From IMG/VR virus record IMGVR_UViG_2534682166_000005: a DNA stretch of 62,355 nucleotides. One strand, written 5' to 3'. The position numbers were made by a program. The DNA is from a virus (lineage: Duplodnaviria; Heunggongvirae; Uroviricota; Caudoviricetes). Shown piece after piece: positions 45,001 to 48,000 of this stretch. Within the stretch, counting starts at the first letter, position 1. Each line of letters opens with the position of its first letter.

Positions 45001-48000
45001 GTGGTGTAAAACGGCCGGGAGGTGCCGCTCTTCGCCTTCTTTCAGTCGTAGAGAAAAACGGAATCCAGGTAATATCATGATACTCCAATACAACAAAACC
45101 CGCCGAAGCGGGTTTTCATTAGAAGCACCTTTAGTTTTGCTGTTCTATTTTAAGCTTGATAGTTTCATACAAAACAATAGTTGCGCCTGTTTTACATAAT
45201 TCCCGGCTGTCATACGCACGAGACCAATAACACAACCAGTTCTCGAGATCTTCTCGAGTATAGGTTTTGCAGGCCAGTCCCTCTGCCATTTCCACGATTT
45301 CATCGCCTGGTGCTGTTAACTCATAGCCATTCAACAACAAGAAGACATAACCAGCCATCATAGCTGTTCGTTTGTTTGCATTAGCAAATGGATGATTCTG
45401 AATCAGACTTTCAATCAATACTGATGCCAGTACAAACATGTCATTAGTCTGTTCATACCATCGAACCATGCTGGGACGAGACTGAGAAGAACTTAAATTA
45501 TCAACACTCAGCACACTAACAGGTTCATCTGGTGTTTGAAGCTCAATTAAAAGGCGATTAATTTCGGTAAGATCATCAAACGAAAGGTAGTGCACTCCTT
45601 CAACAATCTCAGCCATAGAGCACAATACCCATCATTACACTTTTGAAAGTTCTTCCATTGCCTTCTCGTAACGAGAAAAACCGAAATCGAAAGCATTTTT
45701 CACCTGCTCACGATGAGTGCAATTTTCATCGATAGCCGGGCGCGGAGCTGCCACAACGCTTTTATCGCGAGGGGGAATAGTCAATCGCGGGTGTTTTTTT
45801 AGTGCGTAGCTCATTGGGTGTACCCTTACTTCTCCGTCCTGTTCTTTAACAAAAATCAAGTCAATACAAAATTAGTCAGGCTAATGTTGTTAGCATAGCC
45901 TAATACCAATCGTATTCACAACCACAGTAAGTGAAAAAACCCGCCGAAGCGGGTTAAGTGCGGGTGCGTTGAGGATGCCTGACACATCAGAGGTGGCGAG
46001 GGATTTCTCCCTCGCCGGGTCTCTTACTCCTCAGGTTCGTAAGCTGTGAAGACAGCAACCTCCGTCTGACCGGTTCGGATTCGTACCTCGCAGAGGTCTT
46101 TCCTCGTTACCAGTGCCGTCACTACGACGGTAATACAGATGACGATCAGGGCGACTAACATCGCCTTTTGCTGCTTCATAGCCTGCTTCTCCTTGCCTTT
46201 CGGCGCGTAAGAGGCTAACCTACATGTGTCTAGCATGAAATTGGCCTCAGATTAATGTTAGGCGTCTTGCAGGACGCGTAATGTTAACTGGGGTTTTTCT
46301 CTGTCTGCCTTACGGTGGCATGCCCGAGGCAGACAGCCTCAAGCACCCGCAGCAATTCTACTTAACTCTCGCTTTACCGCAAACCGTTTTTACCCGATAT
46401 GGGAATTCCCATATCGTAATGAATTCAGTTCCCTAGTCGATCCATCAAAAACACAACCAGGCAGTAAACGCCCACAACAGCAATAACAGCCAGCGCACCT
46501 TCCATTGCCAGTGATATATCATCCGACATATTCCCTCCTTTGGTGTTAATCCCGGCGAACGTTTTTACCCCCACCGACAAATAACATATACTAAAAAAGT
46601 GATAGCCATAGCAACGCCTGTAATTGCAAATGCTTCAGGCCAGTTCATTGGCGCACCTCCTGCGGCGGTTCTGGTAGCGGCATCCAGTCGGTTACATTGC
46701 GGCTCTGTGTTTCGAAAAATTCATCACCATCACGGACTACATCAAAAAACTCACCGTCTCGATATTGCGCATAAAGAACGAATGCGCCATCACATAAAAT
46801 AATTACGTGCTGACCGTCATCCGGCATTCGCTCACTACAGCTTATCCAACCATCCAGAGTTACCGGATGGTTGGTTGACGTTTCCGAGATTTCCCGAAAA
46901 TTATTGGTTGACGAACCCTTCTTTTCCCGAAAGTTTCCAGCCTGAAGCATGGCGGCGCTGTCTGGCGGGGCAGCATATAGCGGCACGTATATTTCCGGTT
47001 CCTTATCAGCACCGGGTTGCTCTTCCAGTGAGAATGTCTTTCCGGTAAATCGATTCATATAAAGCACGGGCTCTGCTTCCAGCGAAGCCTGAGCAACAAG
47101 GGCCAGTGCTAAATCCAACTCAATTGCCTCGAGAGAATTTTTGAATGCTGTCTGTTTTACTGCAAATTTCATCGCCTTTACATTTTCACTAACATGACTG
47201 ATTAACTGCTCTTTTGTAAAAGTGGTCATCTCATTCTCCTTTGATGCGAATGCCAGCGACAATTGAAGCCTGATAGCTAATTTACTCACAGTACCGCCTC
47301 CTGAAAATTCCCCTGATAGAAAGCCAGCACGCGCTGCATAACTTCACTATTCCGGCACTCGCGACAGATTATGTTCAGGCGTCTATCGTAGCGGCGAATT
47401 TCTCCGTCTGGTAACTTTCGAATCAATGTCTGGTCAGTTGTTTTCTCCGGTGTCTTACGCCATACGCGATACACCTGTTCTGATGCAAAAACACCGTATT
47501 TACCGGACATGTATAAATCGCCACAAGCCAGTACATCCACAAGGCAACGTCTGACTGAATGCCAGCCTGCTCCCGTCGCTCTCTCCAGTTGCGATATCGT
47601 CATGCGTTCATTTTTGCGTACCAATCCGATAATTCGTGCCTTCAGTTCTTCCCGCTGTTCGTGTGTAAAAGGTTTCGCCATAAGCGCCTCCGGCAATCAC
47701 TTTTCCGACACAATACGACCGGATGAATCGACAATCTGTCGAACAATATCCCGGTGCTTGTTCAGCTCCCGCAGCGCGGCGCAGACTCGCTCCCACTTCT
47801 GGACCTGTTTTTTGGCGCGACGAAGTTCTCGACTGGCAGCATGCAGCGATGGAAGCATCACCGAACTGGCAGATTTTTCGGTGAATGATGGAACTTCTCG
47901 GATAAACTCATCTGTACTGGCCTTTGCCGTGCTCTCTGATGCCAACGGAAAACGATTCATTTCATCGCCTGCCGCGCTGTTTTCTGCGTCATGGTGTGAT

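What the first reader, a model, noticed from the sequence alone, without database searches (positions are those of the whole stretch)
45097..45956. Doc module bracketed by identical 20-bp hairpin repeats
The 20-mer AAAACCCGCCGAAGCGGGTT occurs at 45097..45117 and again at 45936..45956 in the same orientation, exactly flanking the antitoxin-doc operon. Each copy is a terminator-like hairpin. Identical direct repeats around a self-contained module suggest it arrived or can leave as a cassette by recombination between the repeats, and they insulate it transcriptionally.
Basis: seen in the sequence. Interest (0 to 1): 0.55.

Follow-up and report, generated by a model that had tools for sequence, protein, structure and literature searches.

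The report
Shared terminator hairpins flank Doc module
The two identical 20-base hairpins are ordinary transcription terminators, one belonging to the hok toxin gene and one to the Doc toxin-antitoxin pair. Because they are identical, related prophages have gained, lost or swapped the Doc module (and other defence modules) precisely at them.

Summary
**Observation.** It is real, with coordinates off by 1-2 bases. AAAACCCGCCGAAGCGGGTT occurs only at 45095-45114 and 45936-45955, in a lambdoid prophage of E. coli O104:H4.

**What the copies are.** Both are intrinsic terminators for minus-strand transcripts.
- The right copy is the hok mRNA terminator. It directly follows the fbi element and bounds hok homology in about 4,500 E. 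coli genomes, K-12 included.
- The left copy is the Doc operon's own terminator. It is kept even by 66-76%-identical Doc homologues with no hok nearby.
- The 20-mer is also a generic terminator sequence found across Proteobacteria and unrelated phages.

So the bracketing arises because two co-oriented units with the same terminator sit in tandem.

It holds. 168 complete E. coli genomes have the same flanks joined through one hairpin with no Doc, and a syntenic prophage lacks exactly 841 bp.

**A variable slot.** The same slot holds other hairpin-terminated cargos: two Rosmer systems, an XRE/M78-peptidase module and a lipoprotein. Flanks and cargos reassort at the hairpins.

**Most likely mechanism (inferred).** General or phage-recombinase short-homology recombination within the shared terminator. 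There is no sign of a dedicated mobile element.

**Verdict.** Modest interest; a new member of known kinds (moron, prophage variable or defence slot).

The parts
45095..45116 (.). Left hairpin (hpL). The 20-mer spans 45095-45114 and the stem extends to 9 bp with the following TT. It is the Doc operon's terminator on the minus strand and a likely bidirectional terminator for the convergent HTH gene on the plus strand.
   Evidence: Exact match. Folds at -12.8 kcal/mol (+ strand, z -5.2) and -15.2 kcal/mol (- strand, z -4.2). Flagged by the terminator scan. Present 3' of doc in 23 of 29 informative distant Doc loci.
45131..45616 (-). Doc-family (Fic fold) toxin gene, 161 aa, with the motif HPFANANKRT.
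   Evidence: Pfam Fic 44.4 bits. NCBIfam TIGR01550 DOC_P1 122.2 bits against a cutoff of 38.65. PDB matches to 9vzc (1e-12) and P1 Doc 3k33.
45635..45814 (-). Small upstream partner gene (59 aa), the presumed antitoxin. It matches no known family.
   Evidence: ORF. No Pfam, NCBIfam, PADLOC or PDB match. A homologue is found next to Doc in all 80 Doc loci, at 63-100% identity.
45878..45921 (-). Candidate promoter and operator of the Doc operon: -35 TTGTGA (45921-45916), 18-nt spacer, -10 TATGCT (45897-45892), overlapping the inverted repeat AGGCTA/TAGCCT.
   Evidence: The inverted repeat was found. The hexamers were read by eye and fall below the threshold of the promoter scan. This part is inference only.
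45936..45955 (-). Right hairpin (hpR), the intrinsic terminator of the hok mRNA (AACCCGC-UUCG-GCGGGUU followed by U6).
   Evidence: Exact match. Fold at -11.8 kcal/mol, z -3.3, on the minus strand. Terminator scan. hok homology in about 4,500 E. coli genomes ends at its edge. An identical copy follows K-12 hokD.
45960..45980 (-). fbi-like element at the 3' end of the hok mRNA. It pairs with the mRNA's 5' end.
   Evidence: In the minimum-free-energy fold of 45930-46346 (-), 5' GUGCUUGAGG pairs with 3' CCUCAACGCAC; z = -6.6.
46024..46236 (-). hokD CDS (46024-46179) within the overlapping mok-like reading frame (70-aa ORF).
   Evidence: Pfam HOK_GEF 82.6 bits. RefSeq annotation as hokD.
46174..46348 (-). 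The sok/hok leader region of the type I toxin-antitoxin locus.
   Evidence: Rfam RF01794 sok, 110.3 bits, E 3.4e-24.
44763..45080 (+). HTH (MqsA/XRE-like) gene convergent on hpL. It forms the left flank of the slot.
   Evidence: Pfam HTH_3 and HTH_31. Its 3' flank is joined to hok through a single hairpin in L001, L204 and 168 genomes.

Best explanation
On the minus strand, two independent co-oriented transcription units lie head to tail: [sok/hok - terminator] and [promoter - antitoxin - doc - terminator]. Both end in the same 20-nt intrinsic terminator, so two identical direct repeats bracket the downstream unit. The hairpin sequence (stem CCCGC/GCGGG, UUCG loop, A and U tracts) is a generic terminator that selection keeps invariant. 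The identity of the two copies therefore does not mark a recent duplication. Because the copies are identical, they act as a 20-23 bp patch of homology at a module boundary. Recombination within the hairpin can add, remove or swap the unit downstream of hok. It can occur between co-resident lambdoid prophages or phages (one short crossover in the hairpin plus an ordinary crossover in the well-conserved hok/replication side). It can also occur between the two copies of one genome, or by replication slippage. The position just beyond hok's terminator thus works as a variable slot for hairpin-terminated accessory modules (toxin-antitoxin and defence morons).

Shown here: the structures, which unit each hairpin belongs to, the precise filled and empty alleles, and the reassortment.

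Inferred: termination in vivo, the recombination pathway, and the direction of individual events.
For: Terminator nature:
- Both copies fold stably and are flagged as terminators on the minus strand.
- On 39 hairpin variants, 94.9% of cells pair, 4 of 7 pairs show changes on both sides, and 0 of 500 shuffles reach the observed covariation score.

hpR belongs to hok:
- The predicted hok mRNA closes 5' to 3' (tac/fbi) directly before hpR and a U6 tract.
- hok homology in about 4,500 of 5,426 E. coli genomes stops at the hairpin's edge, including K-12 MG1655 and BL21.

hpL belongs to Doc:
- 23 of 29 informative loci with Doc at 66-76% identity and no hok have the hairpin 3' of doc, 15 of them the exact 20-mer.
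- Two (L198, L195) carry the compensatory variant CCCAC...GTGGG, and most of the 23 have no second copy upstream.

Generic sequence:
- At least 120 stretches in IMG/VR and at least 120 in species-representative genomes, against about 1 expected by chance in 596 Gb. The flanks and the downstream genes are unrelated.

Precise alleles:
- L001 and L204 join the HTH flank to hok through one hairpin. L204's two alignment blocks overlap by exactly the 20 nt, so 841 bp are missing.
- 168 genomes carry this junction, against 34 with Doc in the same context.

Joint behaviour:
- The hok 3' end is joined through the hairpin to 9 left-flank classes, and the doc 3' end to 6.
- Three left classes occur with both.
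- Doc variants, left flanks and hok variants reassort.

Other cargos at the same slot, all co-oriented and hairpin-terminated:
- XRE/M78 peptidase, Rosmer RmrT/RmrA (4.6e-25 and 6.2e-105), a second Rosmer-like pair, and a lipoprotein.

Hairpin conservation:
- Both 20-mers are intact in a Doc+hok block only 88.4% identical to the window. The chance of that without constraint is about 0.7%.

Compatible published mechanism:
- Relaxed homologous recombination by phage Rad52-like recombinases, with a minimal pairing segment of 23-27 bp for Red-beta (PMC3945230).
Against: - A stretch of 20-23 bp of identity is at or just below the published minimal efficient pairing segment for Red-beta (23-27 bp) and below that for RecA (31-34 bp). 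Each event would therefore be rare.
- No crossover has been observed directly, and breakpoints cannot be placed more finely than 'within or at the hairpin'.
- Selection for an intact terminator after illegitimate joins could mimic part of the precision.
- The loci come from redundant collections with capped outputs, so locus counts are not counts of independent events.
- No promoter of consensus quality was found for the Doc operon.
- Termination was not measured.
Confidence: 0.7

Rival explanations
1. The hairpins are only terminators. The 20-base identity is convergent and plays no mechanistic part. Modules are shuffled by illegitimate (non-homologous) joins, and only products that keep an intact terminator next to each unit survive, which gives the appearance of precise junctions.
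For: The 20-mer arises independently in very distant bacteria and in unrelated phages. The homology is shorter than the published minimal pairing segments. Morons are defined as carrying their own promoter and terminator (PMC3594210).
Against: At least five combinations of left flank and cargo show junctions that are exact to the base at the hairpin edges, with no extra or missing bases: HTH, L68, class 1 and K-12-type flanks, combined with Doc, XRE/M78, Rosmer and lipoprotein cargos. Illegitimate joins would be expected to scatter through the spacers. [quoted passage not shown]
Confidence: 0.18
2. The Doc-less alleles arise only by loss, through RecA-independent replication slippage or single-strand annealing between the two direct repeats of one genome. 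The filled state is ancestral wherever it occurs, and gain never happens at the hairpin.
For: Deletion between short direct repeats is a well-established process (general knowledge). The empty junction is exactly the expected product: 841 bp are lost and one copy is kept.
Against: - The same left flank (class 1) occurs empty and with four different cargos. The K-12-type flank occurs empty in the old cryptic Qin prophage and filled with Rosmer in a few loci. That pattern needs gains or swaps, not only losses.
- Each Doc variant is found with several left flanks and several hok variants.
Confidence: 0.07
3. The Doc module is a dedicated mobile cassette moved by a hairpin-recognising enzyme (integron integrase acting on attC-like sites, IS200/IS605-type TnpA acting on a PATE-like element, or a transposase), with the repeat being a target-site duplication.
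For: Identical hairpins in direct orientation around a small cargo, and several different cargos at one site, superficially resemble a cassette array. L223 shows three hairpin-terminated units in a row.
Against: - The cargos contain no recombinase or transposase gene.
- The hairpin is an 18-nt perfect stem-loop. It is not a 57-141 nt imperfect attC and not a pair of different subterminal IS ends.
- There are no inverted terminal repeats.
- Both units carry the hairpin on their own when apart (hok in about 4,500 genomes, distant Doc loci), so nothing is duplicated on insertion.
- The sequence is common in unrelated contexts.
Confidence: 0.03

Closest known systems
Phage morons (accessory transcription units with their own promoter and terminator, present in some related phages and absent from others)
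   Same: The Doc unit is a self-contained, compositionally distinct unit (41% GC against 47-54% in the neighbours) with its own terminator. It is present or absent between otherwise syntenic lambdoid prophages (definition in PMC3594210).
   Different: The terminator is identical to that of the neighbouring unit, and the filled and empty junctions fall exactly in it. Several different morons alternate at the one slot. A promoter is only weakly predicted.
[quoted passage not shown]
   Same: Hok peptide, mok-like overlapping frame, sok region, predicted 5'-3' tac/fbi closure and a terminal terminator hairpin. The hairpin is identical to that of K-12 hokD.
   Different: Nothing unusual in the locus itself. 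What is added here is that its terminator doubles as the fixed edge of a variable slot.
Phd/Doc type II toxin-antitoxin module of phage P1
   Same: Doc-family Fic-fold toxin with the HxFx(D/N)(A/G)NKR motif, preceded by a small co-oriented gene, carried on a temperate phage.
   Different: The upstream partner has no detectable similarity to Phd/YefM or to any other family. The toxin is 161 aa with a C-terminal extension, and similarity to P1 Doc is weak (E 1e-4). The module sits in a lambdoid prophage and was not found on any plasmid or in any deposited phage record.
Prophage-encoded hotspots of defence systems (P2 and P4 hotspots; Rousset et al. 2022, PMC9122126)
   Same: Conserved flanks with alternating cargo that includes recognised defence systems (Rosmer) and toxin-antitoxin modules.
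   Different: Different phage group (lambdoid, nin region). The slot is not next to cos, and its boundary is a shared terminator hairpin. That paper leaves the exchange mechanism open and does not mention terminators.
Homology-driven mosaicism of temperate phages (relaxed recombination by Rad52-like recombinases, De Paepe et al. 2014; the older 'linker sequence' idea of modular phage evolution, cited from my own knowledge)
   Same: A short conserved sequence at module boundaries across which flanks reassort.
   Different: The conserved patch here is a functional terminator of only 20-23 bp, at or just below the measured minimal pairing length. No recombination assay was done.

Membership tests
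Intrinsic (Rho-independent) terminator | GC-rich stem-loop immediately followed by a U-tract on the transcribed strand | tested here: met
   Minus strand: hpR has a 7-bp stem, UUCG loop and U6; hpL has a 7-9 bp stem followed by UUUUGUUGU. Both are flagged by the scan and fold stably. On the plus strand only hpL has a T-rich tail.
Intrinsic (Rho-independent) terminator | Position at the 3' end of a transcription unit | tested here: met
   hpL lies 16 nt after the doc stop codon. hpR lies 68 nt after the hok stop codon and 4 nt after the fbi-like element.
Intrinsic (Rho-independent) terminator | Structure conserved through compensatory change | tested here: met
   94.9% of cells paired, 4 of 7 pairs with changes on both sides, 0 of 500 shuffles reaching the observed score, and slid controls far lower. 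Caveat: the variants were collected as sequences within 3 mismatches of the 20-mer.
Intrinsic (Rho-independent) terminator | Transcripts end there in vivo | not testable with these tools
   Needs Term-seq, 3' RACE or a reporter assay.
Phage moron | Present or absent between otherwise syntenic related phages | tested here: met
   L204 compared with the window: flanks 87% and 94.6% identical, with exactly 841 bp missing. 168 genomes have the empty form and 34 the filled form in this context.
Phage moron | Own terminator | tested here: met
   hpL travels with Doc in six left contexts and with distant homologues.
Phage moron | Own promoter | tested here: inconclusive
   The scan found none. There is only a weak TTGTGA-N18-TATGCT candidate overlapping an inverted repeat.
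Phage moron | Base composition differs from the neighbours | tested here: met
   41.3% GC against 47.3% and 53.9% in the flanks and 49.9% in the whole window.
Doc (Fic-fold) type II toxin | Match to the Doc family model above its cutoff, with the HxFx(D/N)(A/G)NKR motif | tested here: met
   TIGR01550 at 122.2 bits against a cutoff of 38.65. HPFANANKRT aligns to HCFYNANKRT of PDB 9vzc.
Phd/Doc module | Upstream antitoxin of the Phd/YefM family | tested here: not met
   The 59-aa partner has no Pfam, NCBIfam, PADLOC or PDB match. It is nevertheless a conserved partner in all 80 loci. Neutralisation of the toxin was not tested.
[quoted passage not shown] | Hok peptide, sok region, and 5'-3' fold-back (tac/fbi) of the mRNA | tested here: met
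   HOK_GEF 82.6 bits. RF01794 110.3 bits. Predicted terminal pairing, z -6.6.
Transposon or IS with target-site duplication | Transposase gene or terminal inverted repeats, and a duplication created by the insertion | tested here: not met
   No such gene or repeats in the 841 bp. Each unit has the hairpin when alone, so it is not created on insertion.
Integron gene cassette | attC site (long imperfect palindrome with extrahelical bases) and an integron integrase with attI | tested here: not met
   The repeat is an 18-nt perfect hairpin. No integrase lies in or beside the slot in the annotated neighbourhoods. The rest of the window was not scanned for one.
IS200/IS605-mobilised element (PATE-like) | Different imperfect subterminal hairpins at the two ends, and TnpA-dependent insertion 3' of a short target | tested here: not met
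   The ends are identical perfect hairpins, and one hairpin remains at empty sites. The presence of a TnpA elsewhere in the host was not tested.
Prophage defence hotspot | Conserved flanks with alternating cargo enriched in defence systems | tested here: met
   Five cargo types at the slot, including two Rosmer-type pairs. Enrichment was not tested statistically, and 42 of 56 Hok-selected loci have no second hairpin within 4.5 kb.

The most novel reading that the evidence does not exclude
The conserved terminator hairpin may be more than a boundary marker. It may be the working joint of a recombinase-independent cassette system. In lambdoid prophages, accessory modules (toxin-antitoxin pairs, Rosmer, other defence genes) each carry the same about 20-nt terminator. 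They stack head to tail downstream of hok and are exchanged between phages by short-homology recombination within that terminator. This would be a functional analogue of attC-bounded integron cassettes that uses only general or phage recombination. It would also explain why this exact terminator sequence is kept invariant on such modules.
Probability: 0.3. Interest if true: 0.55.

Novelty: new member of a known kind. Interest (0 to 1): 0.36.

Why it matters
- The case gives a clean, checkable natural example of how toxin-antitoxin and anti-phage modules are swapped between lambdoid prophages of pathogenic E. coli (O104:H4, O157, O26, O145 lineages).
- It identifies the position just past the hok terminator as a variable slot where new defence genes could be looked for.
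- It bears on the old question of whether phage mosaic joints arise at short conserved sequences or by illegitimate joining. That question becomes directly testable by replacing one 20-nt terminator.
- It is also a caution for sequence reading: identical short direct repeats that are strong terminators need not mark a duplication or a mobile element.

Tried and rejected
- **Target-site duplication or a transposon.** Rejected. There is no transposase and there are no inverted repeats, and each unit carries the hairpin when alone.
- **Integron attC or IS200/IS605-like ends.** Rejected on the anatomy of the repeat.
- **The many 20-mer copies that precede a gene start share a homologous downstream gene**, which would make the sequence spread by descent rather than convergence. 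Rejected. The downstream proteins fall into many unrelated small clusters such as tail, baseplate and tape-measure-like proteins.
- **The Doc module on plasmids or in deposited phage genomes.** No match in PLSDB or INPHARED. It was found only in prophages of genomes and in IMG/VR contigs.
- **A family assignment for the 59-aa partner.** Nothing found in Pfam, NCBIfam, PADLOC or PDB.
- **Prior description in the literature.** Searches found no description of a hok-adjacent slot or of terminators as joints. The recent Hok survey does not mention terminators.
- **Second hairpins 3.7-4.4 kb from hok.** These run through ordinary nin-region genes to another, loop-variant terminator and are not cassettes.
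- **Not used.** The structure prediction, representative-protein search and metagenome scan tools were not needed.
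Full report
**Observation.** The 20-mer AAAACCCGCCGAAGCGGGTT occurs exactly twice in the window, at 45095-45114 and 45936-45955, both on the + strand. No further copy appears with up to three mismatches, and no match appeared in 100 shuffles. Identity ends at the edges of the 20-mer. The copies are 841 bp apart and enclose two minus-strand genes: a 59-aa ORF (45635-45814) and a 161-aa Doc-family gene (45131-45616). The window is 100% identical to a chromosomal lambdoid prophage of E. coli O104:H4. No deposited phage record covers as much as 80% of the 2.4-kb region, and none holds the Doc module.

**Neighbourhood.** From left to right the region holds:
- an ORF6N/Ant gene with C4 and isrK RNAs;
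- a RelE-like gene and an HTH gene on the + strand;
- the left hairpin (hpL), doc, the small ORF, and the right hairpin (hpR);
- hokD with its sok region;
- DUF551 and DUF977 genes and the replication genes.

**What the hairpins are.** Both fold into 7-9 bp GC-rich stems, with a UUCG loop on the minus-strand RNA followed by U-tracts. The scan flags both as minus-strand terminators. hpL also has a T-rich tail on the + strand, so it can serve the convergent HTH gene. On 39 sequence variants collected from all loci, 94.9% of cells pair, four of seven pairs show changes on both sides, and no shuffle reaches the observed covariation score. The variants were picked as near matches, which is a caveat.

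**Which unit owns which copy.**
- *hpR and hok.* The predicted hok mRNA (45930-46346, minus strand) pairs its 5' end GUGCUUGAGG with CCUCAACGCAC near the 3' end. That is the tac/fbi closure known from hok mRNAs, and hpR and U6 follow four bases later (z -6.6). In about 4,500 of 5,426 complete E. coli genomes, homology to hok stops at the left edge of hpR, whatever lies beyond it. K-12 MG1655 and BL21 are among them. K-12's hokD in the Qin prophage has the identical hairpin. hpR is therefore hok's terminator.
- *hpL and Doc.* Among 80 Doc-encoding viral contigs, 31 have Doc at only 66-76% identity and no hok. Of the 29 informative ones, 23 still have the hairpin just 3' of doc, and 15 have the exact 20-mer. 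Two (L198, L195) carry the compensatory variant CCCAC...GTGGG, and most of the 23 have no second copy upstream of the operon. hpL is therefore the Doc operon's own terminator.
- *Consequence.* The bracketing follows from two co-oriented units with the same terminator lying in tandem.

**The sequence is generic.** The species include Pseudomonas, Burkholderiales, Serratia, Nitrosospira and Saccharibacteria. About one occurrence would be expected by chance in 596 Gb. About two thirds of the viral hits have flanks unrelated to this locus. Where a gene starts just after the hairpin, the genes belong to unrelated families. In a Doc+hok block only 88.4% identical to the window, both 20-mers are intact. 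The chance of that without constraint is about 0.7%. Identity of the two copies therefore says nothing about a recent duplication.

It comes out positive.
- L001 has ...atacaac-AAAACCCGCCGAAGCaGGTT-aagtgcgggtg..., which is the left flank of hpL joined through one hairpin to the right flank of hpR, with no Doc.
- L204 is a syntenic prophage, 87% identical on the HTH side and 94.6% on the hok side over 5 kb. Its two alignment blocks overlap by exactly the 20 nt of its single hairpin, so exactly 841 bp are missing.
- A synthetic empty-site query finds this junction uninterrupted in 168 complete genomes (O157, O26, O145, O103 and others). By comparison, 34 genomes have Doc in the same context and 120 have Doc in any context.

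**The hairpin as a joint.** Across all fetched loci, the hok 3' end is joined through the hairpin to nine classes of left flank and the doc 3' end to six. Three left classes occur with either hok or Doc as the right-hand partner. Doc sequence variants, left flanks and hok-side variants reassort freely. The closest Doc-less relative of the window's hok side (98% identical) has a different left flank from the window.

**A variable slot.** Other cargos sit between hok's hairpin and a second copy. All are co-oriented with hok and end in the hairpin or a near variant:
- an XRE protein, an M78-type peptidase and a small Cys-rich ORF (spacing 1348/9 bp);
- a Rosmer system, RmrT 4.6e-25 and RmrA 6.2e-105 (spacing 1835 bp). 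Its outer flank is the K-12 Qin type, and the empty form of that flank is K-12 itself;
- a second RmrT/RmrA-like pair by size and architecture (a 204-aa protein plus a 381-aa HTH-HEXXH peptidase), not scanned against PADLOC (1865 bp), and a single lipoprotein gene (665 bp).

The XRE/M78 module keeps the same hairpin at its 3' end when found away from hok. L223 shows three hairpin-terminated units in a row. In a sample selected by the Hok protein, 14 of 56 loci with enough flank have a second hairpin within 4.5 kb. Ten of these are such cargos. The other four, at 3.7-4.4 kb, run through ordinary genes to another terminator.

**Mechanism.** No recombinase, transposase or inverted repeat lies in any cargo, and nothing resembles attC or IS ends. 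A dedicated element is therefore unlikely.

The best-supported reading is recombination within the shared terminator. One route is a short crossover in the hairpin plus an ordinary crossover in the conserved hok/replication side, between co-resident lambdoid genomes. The other is recombination or slippage between the two copies of one genome.

Phage Rad52-like recombinases are known to drive such mosaicism. The measured minimal pairing length of 23-27 bp for Red-beta (31-34 bp for RecA) puts this 20-23 bp patch at the margin, so events should be rare (PMC3945230).

The main rival is that joins are illegitimate and only products with intact terminators survive. The base-exact junctions in at least five combinations of flank and cargo argue against it, but do not exclude it.

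**Comparison and novelty.**
- The Doc unit fits the definition of a moron (PMC3594210). Its own promoter is only weakly predicted.
- The slot resembles the defence hotspots of P2 and P4 (PMC9122126), whose exchange mechanism is open. It lies in a different phage group and at a different kind of boundary.
- The toxin is a bona fide Doc-family member. Its partner is not Phd/YefM-like.
- I found no description of this slot or of terminators as exchange joints.

This is a new member of known kinds and of modest interest. The more novel reading, a recombinase-independent cassette system built on a shared terminator, is possible but unproven.

Noticed in passing
window 44400-44770 (+): The RelE/ParE-family toxin gene upstream of the HTH gene carries two 1-nt deletions relative to the intact 123-aa copy in L204, so it is a pseudogene. 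Its HTH partner (44763-45080) is intact. RefSeq annotates only a 68-aa fragment.
   Followed up: partly
window 43385-44297 (-): A P1/P7 immI-like arrangement inside a lambdoid prophage: C4 antisense RNA (44110-44194), isrK (44220-44297) and an ORF6N/P22 AR antirepressor gene (43385-44056).
   Followed up: no
window 40894-41099 (-): Full-length match to the sRNA STnc100 (RF02076, 165 bits).
   Followed up: no
L011 2815-4669; L421 5244-7109: A Rosmer anti-phage system (RmrT/RmrA, PADLOC) in L011, and in L421 a pair of the same architecture (204 aa + 381-aa HTH-HEXXH peptidase, not scanned against PADLOC). Both sit directly downstream of hok's terminator in lambdoid prophage contigs, each bounded by the hairpin.
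   Followed up: partly
L223 about 2079-4990: An array of co-oriented accessory units, each ending in the same hairpin or a one-mismatch variant: XRE/M78 peptidase/small Cys-rich ORF, then a 147-aa ORF that looks like a GNAT acetyltransferase by eye (not scanned), then a 117-aa ORF with an N-terminal hydrophobic stretch.
   Followed up: partly
L004-L123 and L229-L348, many loci: In 55 of 224 occurrences, the 20-mer is followed within 45 nt by an RBS and start codon of a gene on the terminator's strand (flanks such as ...ctccgggcataaa). These genes belong to unrelated families, among them tail and baseplate-like proteins.
   Followed up: partly
L158, L161, L170 (right of the small ORF): Three close Doc modules are not followed by hok or a second hairpin. 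The replacement sequence contains a short stretch resembling the hok 3' end (ctcttactggcggattcgtaagct) and a different terminator, possibly a hok remnant.
   Followed up: no
window 45635-45814 (-): The 59-aa presumed antitoxin of this Doc has no detectable relative in Pfam, NCBIfam, PADLOC or PDB. It is nevertheless conserved beside Doc in all 80 loci examined. It may represent an undescribed Doc-antitoxin family.
   Followed up: partly
L078 370-552 (-); L223 3110-3292 (+): A conserved 60-aa Cys-rich ORF (CxxC...C...CxC) lies between the M78 peptidase gene and the terminating hairpin of the XRE/M78 cargo.
   Followed up: no
L237 3003-3173; L287 24-1035: Two exact copies of the 20-mer lie close together in a Serratia genome (151 bp apart) and in a Stutzerimonas genome (992 bp apart).
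   Followed up: no
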